Assembly (NCBI RefSeq): GCF_009914755.1
Contig: NC_060930.1
DNA from: the human T2T-CHM13v2.0 reference genome, Homo sapiens
DNA length: 64,000 bases
Direction: 5' to 3' (one strand)
The position numbers and the translations under genes are program-made. Below are positions 7,475 to 32,700 of this stretch, in pieces. Under the pieces are notes generated by a model. It did no database searches and was not told where the DNA came from. It saw only the letters and a list, made by a program, of their open reading frames with translations. Positions within the stretch are counted from its first letter, which is position 1. The number at the start of each line of letters is the position of its first letter.

Positions 7475-9979
7475 AAGACTCTGGGTTCTCTGAATTATTG
7501 ATGTTGGAACAAGTTCTTAGTTTCCCCTTCCTTAGATAACTTAGATGAGGGCTACGTGGCATCTGACTGTTGTCTCAATCCAAGAAATTCAATAACTTCT
7601 TGATGGGAAGGATGGTTGGCTTTTTGTTTCTAAGGTTAAATGAAGATCCTAAAAAGAGAAATGAAACAACCAAACAGACATATCCAAGTATGGTAAGTTA
7701 TATCAGAGGGAAAAATTATGTAAATAGATAAAGGCATGGAAGAACCTGAATTAAGGCAGGGAATTAAAACTATTCTCAGAAAGAATAGTGCACAGTAGGG
7801 CAATGATGTACTGGAACCAACTCACTTGGGGCCAAAAGAGCTCATTATTAATGTTTTTAGAAATTTTTCAAGCTAGTTGTTGAACATAGCCATTATCCAT
7901 TAAATGATATGAATTTAGAGTTCAATTAATTATATTTTTAAAAGGTATTTTAACTTTATGACTTCATAATTATTTCATGGCATTTTATTGTAAGCTCCAC
8001 TCTTGAGGTTTTTTACATCTCTTGTATCTATATGGTGGGAATACTGTATAAAGATGTGCTATTGCACATCTCTCCCCAACTCTGAATTCAGTAATGTCAT
8101 GATGGTAGCTTGGAATTGGCCATAATACGAGCTTTAACGCCAAAAAAAAAAAAAAAAAAGGCAAAGGCTACAAATTTGGGCTTAATTTATTGTTTTATGG
8201 ACTTCTTGGGCTTAAGAAATTTATCAAACAATGTTCATCTAAGTGTGTGTGTCTGTGTGTGTGGGTGTGTTTGTATGTATACACACTACATATCTATATC
8301 CACAAAGACACAAAGACACACACTTACATAAACATATAGAAATAGATATGTAGTATGTATACTACATTCATTACTATATATATGTATATTTTATACATAT
8401 ATATATATTTATATATATAATGAATGCTTTTCAGGCATGAAAACCCTGAAACATGAGTCAGACTTCACTTCCCACTGATTTCCTTTGCAATGATGTGACC
8501 TCTTCTGCAAAGCATGGGTACTCTTGCTAAGATGACATCCTTCATACCCAGCCCTGCATCTGCATTGCCACTGCCTCTATTCATCAGTATCATCTCCAGT
8601 CTCCACAGACAGGTCAACGTCCCCTGATTCCATACCGATCTTCCCATTTGTCTCCTGACTTTTGAAAATATTAATACTTTTTAAAGCTATCTAAGGTTTC
8701 ACATGACAGTCTACCACCTGCACACAGCTTGTACCAACACCCTATCTCTAAGTGAACCAGGATGTCACATCTTCCCCTGCCAGCAGGTGTGGTCTACCCA
8801 CCTCACCATGACAGACACCTACTGCCATGGTAACCTCAAAACATTTCACTGACTTAAAAAGCTGGATTCAAGCTCTGCTGACCCTTCCCACACCCTGGGG
8901 CTATAACTAGAGGAAAGAGAAGTAATCTAGAGGGAAATCCCAAGGCACCCACAGGTGAGCCAAGAACAGGCTCAAGTAGCACAACATAGAAAATGCACTC
9001 TCATTATCTTCTCTTAAATGTGCCCTTCCAATCAGTCTTATAGCCTGTCTACACCTTGGCTTTACTCAAGTAAATCCCTTTTGTTTTAACAGCTCTCTTT
9101 ATTTTCCACTAAAAAGCTATGCTGGTTATCTGGGTCAGAAACTATATATTGCACTCTGAGAAGTTTCTGGTCCAAAGCAGTGTTCATAGAGAACCACATT
9201 GAGGATCAGCTTTCAGTAGAGATGGTTAGTTTAAAGGCAGGGAGTGTTCTAACAGCATCTTCCCACACATCTGTGAAGTTGCAGCTGCCACAAAAAGTTG
9301 TACCTTCTCCATTCTGGCCTTGAGGACTCCCTGATTCCCTCCTTCCCACTGCCCTCAGCCCACCTACCATCTTCTGCTGACTCTGGTGACTGTCCCATTG
9401 CCTCATCTCTCCATTTCCTCTTCTATCCCTAGCCATTTTAGTTTGGTTAAATTTCACACCAACTCACCGGATCTTGATGCAGCATTTCTCCAGATGCTTT
9501 CTTGGACCAGAGCCACCCTAGCCATTGGTATAATAGAAATAATTATTATTGCCACTCTTATAAATTACTGCACCAGCCAGTCTACATCAATCCCAGATGG
9601 AGATATTACTGACCCTCTTCCTCCAGGTCACCCAGTTGGTAAATGAAAGAGATGATATTTGTTCAGAAGCCAGTTTGACCTGCAAAATTTTGCTTTTAAA
9701 CACCTCGCAAGAGTGCCTATTTCTTGGAATTATCTTCCATAGCTGCTACTGTCTCCACTAGCTAGTTTCAAAGCATATGGATGATCAGATACAAAGCTTC
9801 AGCTTCCTGCCACTTCTCCCTCACTTTTGTCAGTCTTGTTAATATGGATTTTTACATTTTTCATTTTTATTTTTATCATATGAGGAAACTTGGGGTTGGG
9901 GAGTATATAAAAATTGTCCATTGCTATACAGAAAAGAGTTTTGGAGGTCTTCATCTCAATACCAAGAGAAGTGACTTAC

Positions 9980-14870: not shown

Positions 14871-17390
14871 TAATTCTAAGGATATTTGTCATTTCTAAGA
14901 AAACCTTCTTTTTCACACATCTAATTTTTGTTTTAAGTATGTCAGCATATATTTCTGATATTATTCATTTATTTATGTTAAATATTTATACTAACATTCT
15001 TCTAGTTTGGAGAGGGGTTCTAGTTTTTCTGTTAATTTTGGTGCTCTGTCTTGAGGATGTTGAGTTGTACTTGTCTATTGGTTTTTGTTACAAGCGATGG
15101 TGTTGAATTGCCAAATAGAAGAATACCTTTCCAAAACTTAAATGTTATTTACTACTGAAGTTCAGGTTAATGAACTTTCTGATTCTGAGAACTTGTCTTA
15201 GCAGATGAGGGTGAATGTTGGTTGTGCTGCCGGGATGGGTGTATGAGGTGCTGGCATTTTGAATCTGGGAGCTCCATGTTCTTACCTGAAACATTTTTAT
15301 TTCTTAGCCCCTAGTGACCACATCAATCACTTAAAGTGTAGCTAGATTGCAAGTCTTAGCTTGGAGAAAAATGAAAAGGGTAATTTCTCTCTTATTCTCC
15401 TCTTTTTTATTTTATTTTTTCCCTCTGCCTCCTTTATGAAGGGGAGTTTGCTGCGGCTTGACATGGCTTTTCTCAGCTTCCAACATTTACACCAAAAGCT
15501 CTTAATTTGGCTCAGTTCCTTTTGATTCCTCCCTCTCCCACTCAGACTCTTATTTTTCTCTTGGTGCTAAACCAGGATGAGGAGCAAGATCATGTCAATG
15601 TTGTTACAAGAGAGGATTAAGGGCCAAACCTATTTATTGGCCTTTGTATTGCAGAGTTTAGTTTTTATTGTACTCAGTTGTGGCTTCTATTTGTCAGACA
15701 CCTGTGCTTACAAGTGATAGAAGTCCAACTGAAATGGCTTTGGAAGAGAAAGAAAGAGAAAAAGAAAATATGGAGACTGAGGTAGGTCACAGAATATAAG
15801 AATGAGCAGCTGTAACAAGCACAGTTCCAGGGACCAGAGACTGGAATTAAATCTCTGCCCCAAAATAAATGAAGACCTTTGGAACTCTTATTTCAGCTGT
15901 TCTTTTGCACCTTCTCCCTTCTCTTAAATCTACTCCAAGAGGCAACAGACAAGTCTGTTGGCAGTTTTGGAGTCTCATTCATCACATCCATGAAAGCGAA
16001 GAAAAAGCAGCTGTGTTCAAAACCTAGGAGAGGCTCTTATTGGCCCAGCCCAGAGTACTTTATTACCATTTGAACCAATTGCTGCAGCCTTGTGGGTGCA
16101 GTGCCAAGTTGTCTGATTGGTCACTCCCATCATCCCAATGATTTTCAACCTACAGGTCATTACTCTTATCAATTTAGCACCTCTTATCAATTTAGCCACT
16201 ATGGTTTTTTAAACAAGATGGATGAGGCCCAAATAGAATGGAACAGATCATAGTGCATCCCACTTAGTAAGAGTCAGGATTATTTTGTGAAACTTTCGAT
16301 GCTGCAACACATGTGTTTACATATAAGCCTATATATTAGTATTGCAGCACACTTTAAAAATGTATATTTTTTACTCTAGGTCAGTCATACTCCAAAAGGG
16401 TTAAAATTCTTCTCTTTACTGCACGTTTTATGTATTTTATTTCTATTGATAATGCCTCTGATTCCCAGACATAATGCTTTTGGTTGGACTTTCAAAAAGG
16501 ACGGCCTAGAAGATAATTGTTCAACCATGTAATTGCTTCACTTTTCATTACCCTGTGGGTTTATTGGGCAGCTACATCTATTTCTCCTCTGGACTCCAAA
16601 GTCAAAGGTTGTGTTTTGTACGCATGCTTCTTTCTTTACTCTAGGTCAAACTCTATTCCACAGTCCAGTCTGGGAACTGACGTAAGCTTCTAGTTGTTAG
16701 ACAATGGTAGCCATCAAAGAAACTTAAGGTGATCTAAAGTTAGGTTTAATAAAAGTAAATTTTAGACTAACATCTGCCATATGTACAGATATTTATGAAA
16801 CCATCTAACCATCAGATTGCGCCAAATGTTCATTCCTAGCAGATGCAACACCATTCCAGAGACAGGATTTTGTTACCCTTAGAGTTAGTATCAGGCAAAA
16901 GGAAATCAATCTAAACCAATGCTTTGGACACAAGCTTATCTAGAAATGAAGCCTAGGGTATCCTCCATAAAACTACAGGTTACAGACCTTACTGAACTCT
17001 CCAGATCTGGACTCTGCAGAGTCCAGCTTTGGCAGAAATGTGGCTGATAGAGGCCATTACAGGAGCGTCCTTTGGCCTGTAACCCTCTTTTACATCAGCC
17101 TGGCTGACCACCCTAGAATGAGACCTCTTGGGAAAGCTGACAGCCCACAGAGTGATACCTTCAACCAATTGGCACATACATACCTCCCTATAGTAAAATA
17201 TCTAAAGGCTAAATACAATCTTAAACATGCCAAATAAAAAGCACTAAAGCATGTCCCTTAGGCTTGAAGAAATTAATCATCAGTTGACAAATTCATTATA
17301 ACTTGATGGCAAATAAAACAGCCCACATGAACAAAACTGTTTTATAAGTGCTTTTCTGGATACCACATAAAAATCTCTTTCACAAAATTA

Positions 17391-17591
17391 TTAGGTTAAT
17401 GCAAAAGTAATCGCGGTTTTTGCCATTAAAAGTAATGGCTTCCCACAACCAGATGTCCCATGCAAAGTAGTGCCCTCTAATGCCAAACCAAAAGCAGAGG
17501 TCATAAAGACTATATCCCTTACACACACACACACACGCGCGCGCGCGTTAAAATAATGGCAAAAACCGCGATTACTTTTGCACCAACCTAA
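17391..17591. mobile_element. MADE1 (Hsmar1-derived MITE) with a ~108-bp internal insertion
   Basis: TIRs TTAGGTTAATGCAAAAGTAATCGCGGTTTTTGCCATT and AATGGCAAAAACCGCGATTACTTTTGCACCAACCTAA; TA target duplication at 17389-17390 and 17592-17593. Confidence 0.93.
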
Positions 17592-17841
17592 TACAGCTTG
17601 CATTGAAATCCAGTGCTAAACTCAGCTTTCAGGAAACCAATGTGACATAATATTGGTAAAGAAAACAAAGTGGAGAGTATCAGGGTAATGAATGAAAGGA
17701 ATGGAGAGACTTTGTTGAAATACTCTTGGGCATTATCTGCCTATGCTTTTACTTGAACTCGTGGCTGGCTTTTGGTTTTACTTTTTCTTTCCCCTCGAAA
17801 AGTAGGTCATCTGCTCTGCTGGGCTTTATTATCTGGGGACG

Positions 17842-18214
17842 TTACTTGCCCTTGGCCTTGTGGTGGCTCTTGGTCTTCTGGGGCAGAAGCACGCCCTGAA
17901 TGTTGGGCAGGACACCGCCCTGCGCGATGGTGACTTCGCCCAGCAGCTTGTTAAGCTCCTCGCCGTTGCGAATGGCCAGCTACAGGTGGCGCAGGATGAT
18001 GCGGGTCTTCTTGTCGCGGGCCGGGTTGCCAGCCAGCTCCAGGATCTCGGCGGTCAGGTGCTCCAGCACGGCCGCCAGGTACACCTGCGCTCTGGCCCCG
18101 ACACGCTCGGCATAGATGCCTTTGCGGAGCAGACGGCGCTGGAGCCCGGCCAGGGAAGACCAAGTCTGGGACTTCAGCGCCAGCCTCGCCACCCTGCTTC
18201 CCACAACCAGATGT
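17842..18214 (-). pseudogene. H2AC3P: Histone H2A pseudogene, canonical replication-dependent type (likely H2AC3P/HIST1H2APS2)
   Basis: Start codon is ACA (ACA TCT GGT TGT GGG AAG = M-S-G-R-G-K position). Lesions: a +1 frameshift near codon 13, deletion of FPVGRV and of one N codon, and premature TAG at 17980-17982. Ends [21 protein letters not shown]. Still CpG-rich. Symbol is from recalled locus order. Confidence 0.93.
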
Positions 18215-18276
18215 CTCCTGCGAAGTAGCGCCCTCTAATGCCAAACCAAAAGCAGAGGTCATAAGTACTATATCCC

Positions 18277-18310
<34 letters not shown>

Positions 18311-18508
18311 CCCCTAACGGCTAACTTCTCTGGAAGGTGCCTCATCCAAGCAAAGCAGAACTGAAGATACTTTTACATGCCTTTTTCCGTTATTTTTTAT
18401 CCAATCAGACTTTTTCAGACTTCCTTTGAATACAAGTATCTGCAGGATTTTCCTTGTCACCTGTAGACACTTTTTCTCTTTTCAAGGAAGCTAGAAACAG
18501 ATTTTGAT

Positions 18509-18577
18509 ATGCCTAAAGTTTTGAAGTGTTCTACAATCTCTAGAAAGGGCTCCAAGAAAGCCATATGTAATATGCAT
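18509..18577 (+). pseudogene. H2B pseudogene 5' remnant (H2B-psi-A), divergent partner of the H2A pseudogene; possible C-terminal remnant at about 18795-18872
   Basis: MPKVLKCSTISRKGSKKAICNMH aligns gap-free to H2B [23 protein letters not shown]. ATG is 295 bp from the H2A start, with CCAAT at 18401-18405 in between. Confidence 0.75.
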
Positions 18578-18917
18578 TTTTTGTATAATTTGAGAATATT
18601 TATTTCCTCTATAGAGAGCAAGAAAATGAATGGGAAGTGGATGTATGAAAGTCATGTGTTATGTATTCATGGAAATTAATAAGTATATCATACATAGGTC
18701 AAGAAATGGGAGGACAAAGAGATAACTATATTCATGAGGCCTGAAATAAACAAGACACCTGGGCACAAGATACTTATGATATACTAAATATACAGCTAAC
18801 ACTAGATATCCAGGGTACACTGAAGGTTATACAAGCACCCAGTATTTTCAAGGCCTTGATTCAGCCACCTACTGGGGACACCCATTCTGTCACCATGTGT
18901 TCTCTGTTCAAGAAACA

Positions 18918-19444
18918 CACTACTATTCAGCCTTTAACAATAAGGAAGTCATGCTGTTTGTGAAAACATGGGTGAACCCAAGGAACATTAGGGTAAGCAA
19001 AAAACAAAACAAAACAACAACAACAACAAAAAAAACAGGCACAGAAATGCAAACACTACATCATCTCACTTGTATATGGAATCTAAGTATATCAAACTTA
19101 TAGAAGCAGAGAGGAGAACAGAGGTTACCAAACGTTACGGGTTGGGGAAATGTTGGTCAAAGCACACAAAATTTTAGTTAGACAGGAGGAATAAGTTCGG
19201 TTCAGGAGATCTATTGTAAAACATGGTGACTGTAATTAATACAATGTATTGTATACTTGAAAATTGCTATGAGAGTAGATTTTAAACGTTCTCACTACAA
19301 AAAGAAGCGTATGTGAGGTAATGGATAATTATCTTGATTTAGCTGTTCTACAGTGTATACATATATCAAAACATCATGTTGTACAACATAAATATATATA
19401 TATACAAGATTTATTTGTCAATTTAAAAAAAGAAATAAATAAAA
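18918..19444 (+). mobile_element. L1MA-type 3' end lying between H2B-psi-A and H2B-psi-B
   Basis: tactattcagcctttaacaataaggaagtcatg...aaattgctatgagagtagattttaa...A-rich tail. Confidence 0.8.
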
Positions 19445-19849
19445 CCCATGGCTGTTTAGCATGTCTTTCTCATAGAGCAAGTGTGTGTCATTATCCTCTC
19501 CTACGGCACTTCCTGTCTGTGGGATCCCTTGCTGGAATCTCAGTGCTAGTCCTTGTAATCATACCATTAGCTGGGAAAGTTAATGTGGCAGGGAAAGACA
19601 GGATGTTGGCACATTCTGTACTTCCAGGTCAGCACTATGGTCCTACCATCTTGCTTGCTCCCTATTCTAAGTATGTAAAATTATGCTATCTTTTTCCCTT
19701 GCTTCTTGCAGTGGATTTTAAATTTATTTAACCAACCATGTATATCTATCATCTTTATTTGGCCTGTGAGATTTTCTGTTCCATAGGTGGCCTGCCTCCT
19801 TATAGCAAACTTGGAAGCTCCATTGCATCAGAATATTTTCCAACAGGAT

Positions 19850-20212
19850 GCCAGGGTTAAGATCAAGAAAGACGAGAGAAATAGAAGTTCTGCTGCTCAG
19901 AGACTCTAAGTGAACAACTAGTAATCTTGTAGGATGTTGAAACAGATACACTGGCATCTGACCCAAGGCCATGTGAATCATAAATTCCTTTTGCAATGGC
20001 ATCCTCGAGTGGATCACTGGTAAGGCCTCCCATCTGGCCCATTGTAACAGATGATTGACCATACCTCCAGGCAGTTCAAAAGGCCAAATGCTTCCTACTG
20101 CCTGGGGTGCTGGCCAAGAACACTATTGGCCAATACCAAGTACACTAGCTGCCAGTGAGTTCCTTTTATCAGACTTGAACATCATATACCAAAGACAGTT
20201 TCAGAACTACCT
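19850..20212 (+). pseudogene. Decayed H2B pseudogene (H2B-psi-B), including a degenerate 3' stem-loop
   Basis: MLKQI..TGI*PKAM*IINSFCNGILEWITGKASHLAHCNR*LT..TSR..LLPGVLAKN..TKYTSCQ* (TGA 20156-20158) is collinear with H2B. AAAGACAGTTTCAGAACTACC at 20191-20211 resembles AAAGGCTCTTTTCAGAGCCACC. Confidence 0.88.
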
Positions 20213-21064
20213 TGGTTTTTAAAATTAGAGTTCTAGTTAATGTTTTTGCTAATAATCTATTGGTTGTGTTAGTAATTAATAATTCATGGATTGTGAATCA
20301 CCCAATCAAGTAGTACATTAACACAGCAGGAGGTGGGGGAGAAATTTTAAATTTCTCTCAACTTTAACATGTTTTCTTATGTGGTTTGCTTTCTTTAGTG
20401 GTTTGTTTTTAAGATTATAGAGTACTGTGTGCATGTGCTCTAATGTACCACTTATGAAGTGACAGCCTCTGTTCCTTTGCTTTTTCATTAAAGTCTTTAA
20501 ATATCATTTTGTGCTCTGTTTGAAGTTTAAATATCATCTTCATAATGTTCTCAACCTCTTATGGTATCTTGGTTTAATCTGTTTCCTAATTTGCTAGTCC
20601 AACTCCTTCTCCATAATTTTTAAAATAATTTTTCCAATTTACTAAGATTTTGAATCAGTCCTGGAGACACTGGTCCCTAAATCTAAGTGCCATGTTTTCC
20701 AGGATCACTTTTCTTTTCCAGGTCAGATAATTCCTGCTCAAGCTAGGGTTCACTCAAAAAGGCAGCTTCTGACGGCAGTTGATTGTAGGTGGCTGGATTT
20801 ATGACCCAAACTTGACCAGTGTCATTTTTCATAGACTTAGGTTGAGGAGGTTAGTTTCTCTCAAGTAGTTGAAGCTGAAACCTACAAAATTTAGGTGCTG
20901 TAGGAAGAATCTTTTCAAAGTACTCTTGGTACAGGCCACACTCGGGTACTAGGCTGTCTGGTGTTGCTTTCTGAGTGGTTCATGCCAAATATGAACACTA
21001 TTAAATCAGAGTGGAATTTGATCAGCTCATTTACATGCATTATTTAGTTTTCGTCCACTGAGAG

Positions 21065-21109
21065 ATTGGGTTGTCCCTATGCTTTCTTTGAATATGGCAA
21101 CTATAAATA
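21065..21109 (+). promoter_or_regulatory. Fossil H2B promoter: inverted CCAAT, octamer-like element, TATA box
   Basis: ATTGG 21065-21069; CTTTGAAT 21086-21093 (ATTTGCAT-like, 8 bp before TATA as in H2B promoters); TATAAATA 21102-21109. Confidence 0.6.
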
Positions 21110-21171
21110 ATTCCTACTTGGTACTGGCTGCCAGTCTTTTTATCCCTAAGTAGTGTGAGGCTGAATCTACT

Positions 21172-21583
21172 ATGCCTGGGTCTTCCTTTAAGTAGTTTGC
21201 TATTGCCATAATTGACTTTAAGAACATTGGTTTGCCATCTCCAAAAACAACTCAAAGAAACTTTTACCAAAACTCAGAAGATTAGCATGAGAGATGCCCT
21301 ACAGAGAACTACTCCATCTGCTTTAACAAGGTCTTGAAACAAGTGTGCTCCAACATGGGCATTTCATACAAGGCAACACGTTTTGAGAACTATTTTATCA
21401 AGGATATCGTCAAGCACACAGTAGGACAAGACTCTCTCTAGGCCCATTGTAACAGATACTGCACTATCGCCTCCAGAGAGAGCTAATGATCTGTGCACCT
21501 GCTCCTACCCAGGGAATTGATTAGGCATGCTATATCTGAGGACATCAAGGCCATTATTAACTACACCAATTCTATCCAAATAA
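21172..21583 (+). pseudogene. Full-length decayed H2B pseudogene (H2B-psi-C), TH2B-like N-tail
   Basis: From 21301: TENYSICFNKVLKQVCSNMGISYKATRFENYFIKDIVKHTVGQDSL*AHCNRYCTIASRES**SVHLLLPRELIRHAISEDIKAIINYTNS. This is gap-free and about 45/91 identical to canonical H2B by my count. ATG CCT at 21172. Confidence 0.92.
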
Positions 21584-21614
21584 GCTGCTGTTGAGGATTC
21601 AAAGAACATAAGAC

Positions 21615-21636
21615 AAAGGCTCTGTTCACAGCCATC
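21615..21636 (+). terminator. Histone 3' stem-loop remnant of H2B-psi-C
   Basis: AAAGGCTCTGTTCACAGCCATC; the 16-mer core matches GGCTCTTTTCAGAGCC at 14/16, 34 nt after the stop. Confidence 0.85.
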
Positions 21637-21904
21637 AACATTTTCTGTTAATAGCTACCTCTTAATGTATTCATATTTCTGATGGATAGCCCTTTGTATT
21701 ACCTCTTTGTGAATTGTTCAGGATCCTATATAATTGACTTAGTAAAACTTTTCTCCTTTCTACCTTAAATATTAAAAAGTAGGTCTATTTTGTTTATGAT
21801 TTTTCCTAATGAGGGATAGCACATGCTTGTATGTTTGTGTTTCAAAAAACATACTATGTGGCCAAAAATGGTCTCAGTTCACCACATGATTTAGTGAAGG
21901 CCCC

Positions 21905-22375
21905 TGTATTAGTCTGTTCTCATGCTGTTAATAAAGACATACCTGAGACTGGGTAATTTATAAAGGAAGAATGTTTAACGGACTCACAGTGTTTCACAAA
22001 GAGAGTTTCAGAACTACCTTGGTTTTTAAAATTAGAGTTCTAGTTAGTTCTAGTTAATGTGTTTTAGCTAATAATTTGTTGGTGGTGTTAATAATTCATG
22101 GAGTCAGCATGGCTGGGGGAGCCTCACAGTCATGGCAGGAGGCAAACGAGAAGCAAAGGCATGTCTTACATGGCAGCAGGCAAAAGAGAGCTTGTGCAGG
22201 GGAATTCCCACTTACAAAAACATCAAATCTCATGGGACTTCTTCACTGCCATGAAAACAGTATGGGGGAAACTGCCCCCATGATTCAATAATCTCCACCT
22301 GGCCCCACCTTTGACACATGGGGATTATTACAATTCAAGGTGAGATTTGGGTGGGGACACAGCCAAACCTTATCA
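21905..22375 (-). mobile_element. THE1 solo LTR with a ~106-bp foreign insertion
   Basis: tgtattagtctgttctcatgc...cagccaaaccttatca; 5-bp TSD GCCCC on both sides. Confidence 0.9.
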
Positions 22376-23097
22376 GCCCCATTGCTTTTAATGTGAATAG
22401 CCTGAATTAATTTATCTAATTATTGAGGTTAGACACATGTTGTATAATTGTTGCATTTATTTTTTTTTCTGGTTTCAATTGCCATCATCTTGTGTCTTCG
22501 TTTTAACATATTTTCGGCCACAGTAGGGGAACTGCCCTTTGAAAGTATTGGAATCATCTTTGATTCCAATTGAACTGTACAAATGTTTTGTTTTTCAACT
22601 TCTGAAGACAGTTCTATCAGAATTGCATTGAATTTTTAGATTAATATAGATGACAGACATTTGTATAGACTTGTGATTTGCCATTTAAGAAGCTAGATGC
22701 TTTGAGGTATGAAAACTCTTTTTGTACTTCTTTAAAGCTTTATGGTGTTCTTCATGGGGCTTTACACATTTCATGGAGCTTATTTTAAGTTATTTTTCTT
22801 GCTTATTAACATATCTGTGTATAAATATAATGCAAGACTGTTACATTATATTTTTAACTGCTTTTCTATGAATGAATGCTATTGATATTTGTGTTATAAT
22901 ACTGTATTTGGCTGCTTTGCTAAATTTTATCATTTCAGTTTTCCAGGTTTTCCTCTAGGATTTTCCAGGTAGACAGTAATCTGTCAAGCAGGTAAGTAGT
23001 TTCTAAGCAGCAGCACAGGGGCAGCTGCTAGGCTAGCTTGCCACATTTTTACATATTTAGCCAGGAAGGAGACAATGAATCCAAATGTTAGACAGTT

Positions 23098-29718: not shown

Positions 29719-32700
29719 TGATGACAAACTAAGATTAAGAACAAGGTTCACGTCTTCATAAAGTGAAGAGTGATGATGTGTCAGCACGAAGGGCCAAGTT
29801 TATTTTATTGGCTATCATGCTGGGATTGGGGTTTTCATTGTATCAAGTTAAAGGTTGTGTCTTACATATGTCAGGCATATATGATGCCTCAGGCAGAAAG
29901 CCACATTGAACCAACTTCAGGAAAGAAAGCAACTGGGTTAGGGAGCTCACCAAACAGAAAGAACAATGGATGTAGCAAGAACAGCTCCAGACATCTCATG
30001 GTCTAGAATTCAAGATTTTAATCTCATTCTCTTCCTCCCCCTTTCCTTCCTCTCCCTTCTTTTTTCCCCTTCTTTTTCTCCCTCTCATTCTCTCTCCTTT
30101 CCTTTTTCTTTCTCTACTCTTTCCTCACTCATGACCCCAAACGGCTCTAATTTCTGCTGTTTTCTTGCCCATCACGTTCCTTCAGTTAGTCTTTTCTAGG
30201 AGAGAAAAGCCCTTTGCCTGGCAGTCTGGAGTGTCATCCTTATATCTTTACTATAAGAGAAGAAGAGGTATTTGGGTTCAGCCTCCAGATCAGAGAATCT
30301 CCTGAAGGACTTTTATTGGCTTAACTCTGGTCACTTCCCTAATTCTTGAACATATCATCCCAGCTGATGGAGGTAGAGTTCTCCCATTGGCCAAGCTTGT
30401 AGGAACCTTTGGTAACTTGGAGGGCTCTAAGACCATAAAACAAGAGTTTTCCAAAGCACTAATTATGTCTCACTAGTGAAATCAATTTGAATTGATATGA
30501 ACAATATATTTTTTAAATGAGATATATAATAGGATAAATCAAGGCCTTATTCAATAAAATTAAAAATTTCAGAGTGTATTTCACTCTGAAATAAAGGTAA
30601 CTGTTTTGTAAGTATTCTATTTTATTTATATGTGTTTGTGTTTCTGAGTATGTCCTGAGTTGCACGATAATACTATATTTCTTATTGGGTAACATTGTCA
30701 GAAAAGTTTCTAAAAACTTTCTCTGCTGCACTTATTTTATACATTTTATTTATGTTAATAATCTCACATTTAACACACTTATGATTTATTCTCAACAGAA
30801 AAAGGTGGTATTTCTTTCATTTAGTCTTTTAAAAAGCTCACATTATCAAATGATTGCTCAATCATTTAATCTCTTTGCTTCTCTTATATGCATTGATTTA
30901 ATAAATATGTATACTAGTTTCTCCATCGATTCTTTAGATTTGAAACTTATTTTCCTTTTATTCTTACAAAACTGACTTGTCTATAGGCCCACTTCTACTT
31001 CCTTTATTCTATCATCTTCCTCAACTTATTCTGTGGTCAAAGAATGGAGAAATAATATTAATAATATGTTTTTCTCATCAATGACTTCCACCTGTTCTCT
31101 GAGAAATTCAGCTTCAAGAACTTTAGTTTGATATGACTGCAAAGATAATACACAGTCTAAATCACAAAAATGTCTCAAAGGTTTTTTTTTTATTTGTTTC
31201 TTTGAAATATCCATGAACAGGCATGTTTCTCCCCTGTAGTGCAATTTGTGTGAAATTCTGGCATGCACTTAAGAGGATGTCCTAAAATACCAATATTTAA
31301 TTGATTCTAAGTCATGTATTGTATCACATTTTTGCCCATGGATTGTTGAAATCCATGGACAAAACTGATAGCATTTTAGAACTTCCTTTGTCTAGTGGCA
31401 GTCTTGATATATTCACACTATCTATTGACAAAAAATCTAAAGCACCAGGCTCAAAGCTTGTAGAGTAGGTGTCAGTGATTTGGAGGACATCTCTAGGGCA
31501 ATAGTAGAGGCATTTTTAACCCCTAACAACTAAATGATCATCAGAAGTGAGTGATATCCTCACTCATGACCCCAACTGCTCTAATTTCTATTGTTTTCTT
31601 GCAGAAATGAGAGCAGGTGGGGTCATGGGTGAGGAATGAGGTGTTGAAAGTGAATGGGGTGTTGAAAGCAAGGTGTTTAGCAGTGTTCTGAAAGCATACA
31701 TTTAAGTAGGCTATCCGGGCACTGTCAATAGCTAAGTGTCAAGCTAAGTACTCTATTTTATTCTAAGAACTATTTTTAGAAATGCTGAATCAACAAATCT
31801 CAGATGGCACAGAGGTTGTCATTTTTGAATAATATGAATATCAGTAATTTTAGTTGGAAAAGAAGATTTTCAAAGAGCCATCTAAGTTTCCAAAATAAGT
31901 GTTGCAGTCATATTAACTATTATATTTTCCTGCCTGTTGATCTACTGCCTGTGAATTGCTTATCAAACCAACAACCAACTGGAATACATAGACTGCATGT
32001 CTTGTTCATTTCCTGCATTCTCAAGTAATGGTTTAACAAACTCATGAGCTTACTCTTTAATCTGAACCATGCTTAACTTCAATTATGTTGATTTAGTCTA
32101 AGGATGCAGAATTTATTTTATAGTTATGTAGGAACTGGAATCCAAAATGTAATATGCCTCCAAGCTTTTCTTTGTTGGCCTCTGAAGGAGCATCACCTCT
32201 ACAACTTCAACGTTGTTATGAATACCTCTGGGGAGGTGTTCACCTCAGGACCCAAATTTGGAAAAAGGGAAGTGCCACTTTGGAGGAGTGCTCTGAGCAG
32301 CTGATCCATTAAATGTCCCGATCACATGCACGTGGAAGTGTCATTGCAATATCTGCACTAACAGAAGCTCAGTGACTTGAGAAGTGAGTCTGGAATTCTA
32401 AGAAAAAGGCAAGGCATCTCTCTTGCCACTTGTTATTTTTCCAGTCAAGCAACTGTGATAAGAGGGCATGGAGAGCAGGAAGAAGTGAAAAATCCCAGGA
32501 AAGTCTGGAGTGGAATCATTAAACCAATTCTGCTCCCTCTCTAGGCCAACTTGGGCCTATTATGAATAAGGAGGTCTCTTATAATCCATCTAACTCCACT
32601 CAGGAACAATTTGGGGATCTGAGACTGTGAACTCAGTGGGCAAAAAAATATTTCTTGGCCTATCATTATTCTCTGTAGGATGTTAAGGACAGGTTTCTGT

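What the first reader, a model, noticed from the sequence alone, without database searches (positions are those of the whole stretch)
17760..21660. Fossil histone sub-cluster between SLC17A3 and SLC17A2: one H2A plus three tandem H2B relics
Seen: besides the obvious H2A pseudogene, three co-oriented H2B-derived segments lie on the plus strand (18509-18577, about 19850-20212, 21172-21636), roughly 1.3 kb apart. None appears in the ORF track because of stops. They have promoter and stem-loop remnants and no poly(A) or TSD, so they are in-situ dead genes, not retrocopies. Known: the TH2A/TH2B pair and the main HIST1 cluster flank the SLC17 genes on 6p22. Inference: a lost histone module once sat inside the SLC17 array and may still be intact in other mammals. 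I recall only the H2A pseudogene being named here but cannot check annotation.
Basis: partly seen in the sequence, partly recalled or inferred. Interest (0 to 1): 0.8.

Follow-up and report, generated by a model that had tools for sequence, protein, structure and literature searches.

The report
Fossil histone genes, one split by transposons

Summary
All four histone-derived stretches are real. A profile of 19 intact human H2B genes hits the window at only three places (E 2e-14, 3e-36, 1e-35). The H2A pseudogene scores E 9e-105.

There are two H2B relics, not three. Segment 1 (18509-18565, codons 1-19, with the promoter shared with H2AC3P) and segment 2 (19850-20158, the rest of the coding region, plus a stem-loop relic) are halves of one gene. 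A 1.28-kb dispersed repeat carrying a nested second repeat separates them. Removing it in silico gives one collinear full-length match (165 bits, E 2e-52).

Segment 3 is the annotated H2BP5. It keeps promoter, TATA box and stem-loop relics, so it died in place and is not a retrocopy.

The H2B relics are old: 27% and 31% change at conserved sites. H2AC3P shows only 8% and is still CpG-rich, so the H2A gene probably outlived its partner.

H2AC3P and H2BP5 are already named. The split H2B is missing from the RefSeq table I was given. I could not test for intact copies in other mammals, and the published nomenclature lists none. Interest is low.

The parts
17742..18232 (-). H2AC3P, the H2A pseudogene. 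The coding relic runs 18214-17842. The start codon is lost (ACA at 18214-18212). There is a +1 insertion near 18175, an 18-base deletion after 18139, a 3-base deletion near 18012 and an in-frame TAG at 17982-17980.
   Evidence: tblastn E 4.5e-50. nhmmer 18211-17830, 345 bits, E 8.7e-105. Pfam Histone_H2A_C E 3.4e-18. The span comes from the hub annotation. The positions of the lesions are my own reading of the alignment.
18233..18508 (.). Decayed two-way H2A/H2B promoter. It holds a (CA)n run at about 18268-18310, an intact CCAATCAG at 18401-18408 and an octamer-like CCTTTGAATA at 18423-18432.
   Evidence: It aligns to profile positions about 80-409 within the hit at 18139-18563. The promoter plus 5' coding profile gives 18352-18562, E 3.2e-4. 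The columns are shown.
18509..18565 (+).
   Evidence: The N-terminal-only profile gives 18510-18567, E 2.2e-4. It is collinear with segment 2 once the repeat is removed.
18566..18920 (+). Left part of dispersed repeat X, which is inserted in H2B codon 19/20. It begins TGTAAT.
   Evidence: Copies elsewhere in the genome match 18566-18919. No copy matches 18530-18565.
18921..19460 (+). High-copy repeat nested inside X, with an A-rich 3' end at about 19420-19445. I recognise it from memory as a LINE-1 3' end.
   Evidence: 41 matches including self, 6149 first-look candidates of which 40 were scored, 72-79% identity over 19028-19445; one copy (L029) aligns over 18921-19436. The family name rests on recall; Pfam gave no support.
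19461..19849 (+). Right part of repeat X. It ends ...CCAACA(GGAT).
   Evidence: 5 other genomic matches at 68-75%. In 6 other copies with both halves (L033, L034, L035, L037, L038, L040) the left and right halves lie close together on one strand: 73-105 bases apart in four (L033, L035, L037, L038), wider in L034 and L040. Here they are about 540 bases apart. The end of X was judged from the multi-copy alignment.
19850..20158 (+).
   Evidence: DNA alignment to the H2B coding sequence, bases 70-379, at 19865-20156. nhmmer 19938-20247, E 2.7e-36. tblastn E 1e-7.
20189..20247 (+). Relic A's decayed 3' stem-loop (20189-20211) and downstream-element relic.
   Evidence: It aligns with high posterior to profile positions about 823-880. 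Rfam does not detect it at E<=10.
20950..21171 (+). Promoter relic of relic B, with an octamer-like CTTTGAATA at 21086-21094 and a TATAAATA at 21102-21109.
   Evidence: The promoter-only profile gives 20966-21143, E 2.2e-6. The full profile hit starts at 20950.
21172..21583 (+). It has several in-frame stops and a 33-base extra stretch in the N-terminal tail.
   Evidence: tblastn 21289-21573, E 9e-21. nhmmer 20950-21651, E 1.3e-35. The hub annotation places H2BP5 at 21240-21573.
21613..21657 (+). Relic B's histone 3' stem-loop relic. The stem and loop are at 21618-21633, with one broken pair.
   Evidence: Rfam RF00032, 23.8 bits, E 0.0028, below the gathering score of 34. The 3' part of the H2A gene profile also finds it at 21592-21656, E 5e-4.
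17438..17536 (+). Secondary patch copy of the H2AC3P 5' end and upstream flank (source 18196-18294, 94% identical). It sits in the centre of a palindromic mini-transposon.
21991..22107 (+). Secondary patch copy of relic A's stem-loop and 3' flank (source about 20188-20280). It sits inside a high-copy LTR-like repeat.

Best explanation
The interval holds the remains of three replication-dependent histone genes that died where they stand: a divergent H2A-H2B pair and one more H2B gene downstream, in the same orientation.

The H2B partner of H2AC3P (relic A) was interrupted at codon 19/20 by a dispersed repeat of about 750 bases (X). X later received a second, high-copy insertion. This pushed the first 57 coding bases and the shared promoter 1.28 kb away from the rest of the gene, so a reader of raw sequence sees two fragments.

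Relic B is the annotated H2BP5. It is a separate, complete gene relic with its own promoter, TATA box and stem-loop.

Shown:
- Homology of every piece to H2B or H2A.
- Collinearity of segments 1 and 2 across the repeat.
- The repeat nature of the intervening DNA.
- The very different decay of the H2A half and the H2B half.

Inferred:
- The two H2B genes decayed independently for a very long time, about as long as repeat X has sat there.
- The H2A gene stayed under selection as a solo gene for roughly two thirds of that time and died much later, probably in early primates.
- Nothing here now encodes a histone.
For: 1. Only three places in 64 kb match the H2B gene profile. Together they cover the profile once over for relic A: positions 4-464, then 546-880.
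2. No second promoter or N-terminal relic lies between 18568 and 19937. Three sub-profiles give 0 hits there at E<=50.
3. The intervening DNA is repeat.
   - 19028-19445 has at least 39 other copies.
   - 18566-18919 and 19462-19845 match the same loci elsewhere. In 6 of them (L033, L034, L035, L037, L038, L040) both halves are present on one strand, and in four of these (L033, L035, L037, L038) they are only 73-105 bases apart.
   - Similarity to other copies begins at 18566 and ends at about 19845-19849. These are exactly the points where H2B homology stops and resumes.
4. Removing 18566-19845 in silico gives one hit over profile positions 4-885, at 165.1 bits and E 2.2e-52. Only 4 extra bases sit at the junction.
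5. The distance from the H2A start to the H2B start is 295 bases. In 12 intact human pairs it is 304-382 (my arithmetic from the coordinates).
6. Decay at sites conserved among intact genes:
   - H2AC3P 21/263 = 8.0%, GC 0.65, CpG o/e 0.68.
   - Relic A 75/282 = 26.6%.
   - Relic B 92/297 = 31.0%, with CpG o/e 0-0.18 in the relics.
   - Repeat X differs from its family majority at 96/446 = 21.5%, about as old as relic A's decay.
7. H2AC3P is 72.9-86.2% identical to 16 intact H2A genes. That lies inside the range among intact paralogues (median 85.3%), so there is no sign of a recent conversion donor.
8. Relics A and B are 59% identical (199/336). Each is closer to the consensus than to the other. 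Shared derived bases number 16 against 11.9 expected, P = 0.088. This fits independent decay.
Against: - A clean target-site duplication for X cannot be read. Candidates such as GCCATA / GCCAGG are too decayed.
- The left end of X rests mainly on one other copy that reaches it (L040). Two or three more begin within 15-20 bases.
- About 75 bases of X that other copies carry between the two halves are missing here.
- The stretch 19850-19937 is so decayed that nhmmer alone did not align it. It is placed by the pairwise alignment and by the joined run.
- A cluster of 5 shared derived bases at coding positions 251-259 in relics A and B hints at some common history or conversion that I cannot explain.
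- The ages are rough. GC-rich genes decay faster than average DNA after death.
- The family names of the repeats come from recall, because no repeat library is available here.
Confidence: 0.85

Rival explanations
1. One reading: three separate tandem H2B relics. Segment 1 would be a 3'-truncated gene and segment 2 an independent 5'-truncated copy.
For: A possible ATGCC start-like string sits at 19848-19852. It resembles relic B's ATGCCTGGG. The three pieces are spaced about 1.3 kb apart.
Against: - Segment 1 stops and segment 2 starts at the same H2B codon, within about 6 bases, and precisely at the two ends of a dispersed repeat.
- No promoter or N-terminal homology lies upstream of segment 2.
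- There is no 3' part after segment 1.
- The ATGCC string can be read as the resumed ...GCC of codon 18, or as a target-site copy.
Confidence: 0.07
2. H2AC3P died together with its H2B partner. It looks young only because gene conversion from a working H2A gene overwrote its coding region later.
For: The sharp drop in GC and CpG at the 5' edge of the H2A coding relic is what a conversion tract limited to coding homology would give. Its 3' stem-loop looks partly deleted (my reading). The H2A profile alignment stops at position 405.
Against: The best identity to any of 16 intact human H2A genes is 86.2%, no better than a typical pair of paralogues. No donor is visible. A conversion old enough to hide its donor is hard to tell apart from late death.
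Confidence: 0.15
3. The H2B relics are retrocopies, or chance similarity, rather than genes that died in place.
For: Histone mRNAs have no introns, so the usual intron test for retrocopies is not available.
Against: - Homology extends into promoter DNA upstream of the transcription start. Relic B's promoter-only profile gives E 2.2e-6. Relic A shares a CCAAT-bearing promoter with H2AC3P at the normal spacing.
- The E-values of 1e-35 to 1e-36 exclude chance.
- No A-tail follows either 3' end.
Confidence: 0.02

Closest known systems
H2AC2P / H2BC2P, the dead divergent H2A-H2B pair next to TH2A/TH2B on the other side of the SLC17 array (in L010)
   Same: A divergent H2A-H2B pair pseudogenised in place at the edge of the major histone cluster. 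I found it at L010:7065-7370(-) and 7738-8084(+). Seal et al. 2022 name such in-place decay as a feature of these clusters (section 10 read in full).
   Different: [quoted passage not shown] Its H2B half is the better preserved one: 88% protein identity over residues 25-126. Here the H2B half is the ancient wreck, it is split by transposons, and no coding orthologue is listed.
Intact divergent H2A-H2B pairs of the major human histone cluster (for example L009, L012, L014)
   Same: Head-to-head arrangement, about 300-base shared promoter with a CCAAT box and an octamer-like motif, no introns, and a 3' stem-loop.
   Different: All reading frames here are broken, the H2B gene is interrupted by 1.28 kb of repeats, and the promoter carries a (CA)n run.
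H2BP5 (RefSeq/HGNC pseudogene)
   Same: Relic B is this gene. The annotated span 21240-21573 lies inside my 20950-21657.
   Different: The annotation covers only the best-preserved coding part. The relic also keeps its start codon region from 21172, promoter relics from 20950 and a stem-loop at 21613-21657.
TH2B (H2BC1), the testis H2B 137 kb away
   Same: It is the nearest intact H2B on the telomeric side. At protein level the segment 1 tail looked 60% like it.
   Different: At DNA level TH2B is the least similar of the 19 H2B genes to both relics. Over coding positions 58-381 of relic A it scores 61.9%, against 68.0-72.2% for the other 18. Over the whole coding region of relic B it scores 61.4%, against 62.0-65.2%. 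The relics descend from ordinary clustered H2B genes.

Membership tests
Replication-dependent (clustered) H2B gene, as a pseudogene | Coding homology to H2B over the histone fold and the N-terminal tail | tested here: met
   Relic A after removal of the repeat covers profile positions 4-885. Relic B covers positions 165-859.
Replication-dependent (clustered) H2B gene, as a pseudogene | 3' stem-loop shortly after the stop codon, instead of a poly(A) signal | tested here: inconclusive
   Relic B: Rfam Histone3 at 23.8 bits, E 0.0028, below the gathering score of 34; also found by the H2A 3' profile at E 5e-4. Relic A: aligned by nhmmer only and not seen by Rfam.
Replication-dependent (clustered) H2B gene, as a pseudogene | H2B-type promoter (CCAAT, octamer, TATA) upstream of the start | tested here: met
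   Relic B: promoter-only profile E 2.2e-6, TATAAATA intact. Relic A: CCAATCAG intact, TATA lost. Both carry TTTGAAT in place of TTTGCAT, a variant also present in 3 of the 19 intact genes.
Replication-dependent (clustered) H2B gene, as a pseudogene | Open reading frame | tested here: not met
   Stops and frameshifts occur throughout. These are pseudogenes, not genes.
Divergent H2A-H2B gene pair | Head-to-head orientation with about 300 bases between the two start codons | tested here: met
   295 bases here, against 304-382 in 12 intact pairs (my arithmetic).
Processed (retro) pseudogene | No homology upstream of the transcription start; an A-tail; target-site duplication | tested here: not met
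   Promoter homology is present for both relics. No A-tail is seen.
Interspersed repeat insertion (repeat X with a nested high-copy repeat) | Other copies in the genome whose similarity ends at the same boundaries; target-site duplication | tested here: inconclusive
   Multiple copies and shared ends are met. A target-site duplication cannot be read. Family names could not be tested because no repeat library is held. Pfam on the flanks of 3 copies found nothing in 9 frames.
TH2B (H2BC1) type | Closer to TH2B than to the canonical clustered H2B genes | tested here: not met
   TH2B is the most distant of the 19 genes for both relics.

The most novel reading that the evidence does not exclude
After a transposon destroyed its H2B partner, the H2A gene lived on as a solo gene for most of placental history and died only in early primates. 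On this reading it could still be coding in some non-anthropoid mammals. The leftover CpG-rich H2A body and two-way promoter may also have been kept as a working regulatory element. RefSeq marks an enhancer at 18049-18569 that ends within 4 bases of the transposon junction. A CpG annotated to HIST1H2APS2 varies in blood methylation studies (PMC5984086, passages read).
Probability: 0.25. Interest if true: 0.35.

Novelty: new member of a known kind. Interest (0 to 1): 0.2.

Why it matters
Practical value:
- The work corrects the count from three relics to two.
- It adds one H2B pseudogene, the lost partner of H2AC3P, that is missing from the RefSeq table I was given.
- It extends H2BP5 to its true ends.

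Biological value:
- The locus is a small natural experiment. The two halves of one divergent H2A-H2B pair decayed at very different times, with the dated transposon between them acting as an internal clock.
- This shows that an H2A gene can probably persist after its paired H2B is lost.
- It also supports the view that histone genes were interleaved with the SLC17 genes very early.

None of this changes what is known about histone clusters, where decay in place is already described (PMC9526256).

Tried and rejected
- **Pfam on read-through frames.** H2A is clear. Relic B reaches only E 0.045 and relic A is not seen. Pfam is too insensitive for frameshifted relics, so I built DNA profiles from intact genes of the same genome.
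- **TH2B ancestry.** A 60% protein match of segment 1 to TH2B suggested it. The DNA comparison rejected it.
- **Duplication of an already dead gene (relic A and relic B).** Shared derived bases number 16 against 11.9 expected, P = 0.088. The shared TTTGAAT octamer variant also occurs in 3 intact genes. Not supported. The cluster at coding positions 251-259 is left unexplained.
- **Target-site duplication of repeat X.** No clean one can be read.
- **An H2A partner for relic B, or any H1, H3 or H4 relic in the window.** None was found.
- **Rfam stem-loop for relic A, for the patch copy and for H2AC3P.** Not detected at E<=10.
- **Confirming the nested repeat as LINE-1.** Pfam on the upstream flanks of 3 other copies found no family in any of 9 frames. 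The name rests on recall.
- **Literature.**
  - A search for 'SLC17A2' + 'SLC17A3' + 'histone pseudogene' returned 0 papers.
  - A search for H2BP1, 2, 6, 7, 8 and 9 listed 9 of 12 papers; I saw only the listing and it gave no locations.
  - I could not see Fig. 1 of PMC9526256, which shows unannotated or missing genes per species, nor GENCODE. The claim that the split H2B is unannotated therefore rests on the hub's RefSeq table alone.
- **Orthologous intervals in other mammals.** No tool holds them.


Full report
**What was checked.** The window is human chr6 (T2T). The same genome is held as G000, so I took intact histone genes from it as references. These were a canonical H2B, TH2B, a canonical H2A and TH2A, later extended to 19 intact H2B genes with flanks and 16 intact H2A genes.

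**The observation.** tblastn with these proteins against the whole window gives the following:
- H2A pseudogene, 18201-17845, E 4.5e-50.
- Segment 3, 21289-21573, E 9e-21.
- Segment 2, 19950-20063, E 1e-7, followed by 20074-20133.
- Segment 1, 18509-18565, only E 0.29.

Pfam on read-through frames was too blunt. H2A was clear, segment 3 reached E 0.045 and segment 2 was not seen.

A DNA profile of the 19 intact H2B genes (400 bases upstream to 200 downstream) gives 5 hits at E<=10, of which 3 are significant:
- 18139-18563, profile positions 4-464, E 2.1e-14.
- 19938-20247, positions 546-880, E 2.7e-36.
- 20950-21651, positions 165-859, E 1.3e-35.

A profile of the first 140 coding bases alone finds segment 1 at E 2.2e-4. 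All three segments are therefore real H2B remains at about the stated places.

**Segments 1 and 2 are one gene.**
- Segment 1 carries only the promoter and codons 1-19. Segment 2 carries only codons about 20-126 and the 3' end.
- No promoter or N-terminal relic lies upstream of segment 2. Three sub-profiles give 0 hits between 18568 and 19937 at E<=50.
- The 1.28 kb between the segments is repeat DNA.
  - 19028-19445 has at least 39 other copies at 72-79% identity, from 6149 first-look candidates of which 40 were scored.
  - The stretch 18566-18919 and the stretch 19462-19845 match the same loci elsewhere. In 6 of them both halves are present on one strand. In four of these they lie 73-105 bases apart, and here about 540.
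  - So a dispersed repeat X carries a younger nested insertion.
- Similarity to other copies starts at 18566 and ends at about 19845-19849. H2B homology stops and resumes at exactly these points.
- Removing 18566-19845 in silico turns two hits into one collinear hit over profile positions 4-885, at 165.1 bits and E 2.2e-52. Only 4 stray bases sit at the junction.
- The H2A and H2B start codons are 295 bases apart. In 12 intact pairs the distance is 304-382 (my arithmetic).
- Relic A is therefore the lost divergent partner of H2AC3P.
- I could not read a clean target-site duplication.
- The names I use for the repeats (LINE-1 3' end, MADE1-like, THE1/MaLR-like) are recalled. Pfam on the flanks of 3 copies found nothing in 9 frames.

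**Segment 3.** This is the annotated H2BP5, but the relic is larger than the annotation. It includes:
- promoter homology from 20950 (promoter-only profile E 2.2e-6);
- an intact TATAAATA at 21102-21109;
- a start region at 21172;
- a stem-loop at 21613-21657 (Rfam 23.8 bits, E 0.0028, below the gathering score of 34), which the H2A 3' profile also finds at E 5e-4.

Promoter homology rules out a retrocopy. No H2A partner for relic B was found, and no H1, H3 or H4 relic is in the window.

**Ages and order of events.** The table gives change at columns conserved among intact genes.

| Element | Differences | Non-CpG sites | GC | CpG o/e |
|---|---|---|---|---|
| H2AC3P | 21/263 = 8.0% | 5.5% | 0.65 | 0.68 |
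| Relic A | 75/282 = 26.6% | 22.4% | 0.39-0.47 | 0-0.12 |
| Relic B | 92/297 = 31.0% | 28.2% | 0.41 | 0.18 |

- Repeat X differs from the majority of 6 other copies at 96/446 = 21.5%. The insertion is therefore about as old as relic A's decay. It may have been the killing event, though I cannot show that.
- H2AC3P is 72.9-86.2% identical to the 16 intact H2A genes. That is within the spread among intact paralogues (median 85.3%). No recent conversion donor is visible, and late death of a long-surviving solo H2A is the simpler reading.
- This fits the supplement of Seal et al. 2022, where a whole-word search found H2AC3P in the chimpanzee and macaque lists and in a human gene table.
- Relics A and B are 59% identical (199/336), and each is nearer to the consensus than to the other. 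Shared derived bases number 16 against 11.9 expected (P = 0.088). They decayed independently and are not copies of a dead gene.
- Both descend from ordinary clustered H2B genes, not from TH2B.

**Comparison with what is known.**
- Decay in place is a described feature of these clusters (PMC9526256, section 10 read in full).
- H2AC3P (formerly HIST1H2APS2) and H2BP5 are named genes.
- The dead H2AC2P/H2BC2P pair on the far side of the SLC17 array, which I also saw in L010, is the nearest analogue. [quoted passage not shown]
- No coding H2AC3 appears in the supplement. The whole word 'H2AC3' has 0 occurrences in 2 files.
- I could not see Fig. 1 of that paper, or GENCODE. 'Unannotated' for relic A therefore rests on the hub's RefSeq table.

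**Verdict.** The count is wrong: there are two H2B relics, one of them split by nested transposons. One of the two is already annotated. Whether intact copies survive in other mammals remains untested. For the two H2B genes it looks unlikely, and for the H2A gene it stays open. This is ordinary pseudogene biology with a tidy internal clock, and the interest is low.

Noticed in passing
window 17389-17593: A palindromic mini-transposon (arms 17389-17428 and 17554-17593, 95% complementary) carries a roughly 109-base insert in its centre. The core of the insert, 17438-17536, is a 94% copy of 18196-18294, the 5' end of H2AC3P with its upstream flank and (CA)n run. In other genomic copies the arms are adjacent, and the middle part matches nothing but 18196-18294. 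It looks like a templated patch laid down during break repair. I recall the element as MADE1-like.
   Followed up: partly
window 21904-22376: A high-copy LTR-like repeat (7958 first-look candidates, copies 82-92% identical) is interrupted at 21991-22107. The insert has its core at 21995-22099 and copies relic A's stem-loop and 3' flank (about 20188-20280). Identity is 98% over the first 50 bases, and 81% over 91 bases including a 12-base gap. In other copies the two repeat halves are mostly 4-7 bases apart. The inserted sequence occurs only twice in the genome. This is a second local patch copy sourced from the fossil pair.
   Followed up: partly
window 31873-31913: A weak match to the histone 3' UTR profile (half a stem-loop plus a downstream element; 13.1 bits, E 0.002). 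No histone coding relic lies beside it. It may be an orphan 3' end or chance.
   Followed up: no
window 17845-18215: The H2AC3P coding relic still meets the usual CpG-island criteria: GC 0.65 and CpG o/e 0.68 over 371 bases. The surrounding DNA is at 0.18. Blood methylation at a probe annotated to HIST1H2APS2 has been linked to post-traumatic stress symptoms (PMC5984086, passages read).
   Followed up: no
window 18049-18569: The RefSeq 'enhancer' from the hub table covers the 5' half of H2AC3P, the whole fossil two-way promoter and segment 1. It ends 4 bases past the transposon junction at 18565/18566. I could not see its source or the reason for its ends.
   Followed up: no
L010:6512-6604 (+), and L010:7065-7370 (-) with 7738-8084 (+): Near TH2A/TH2B, beside the H2BC2P/H2AC2P pair, there is one more short H2B-like fragment (residues 22-52, 64.5% identity, E 2.4e-9).
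   Followed up: no
window 18268-18310: A (CA)n run followed by a C-run sits just upstream of the TATA-like site on the H2A side of the fossil promoter. It was copied along with the patch at 17438-17536.
   Followed up: no
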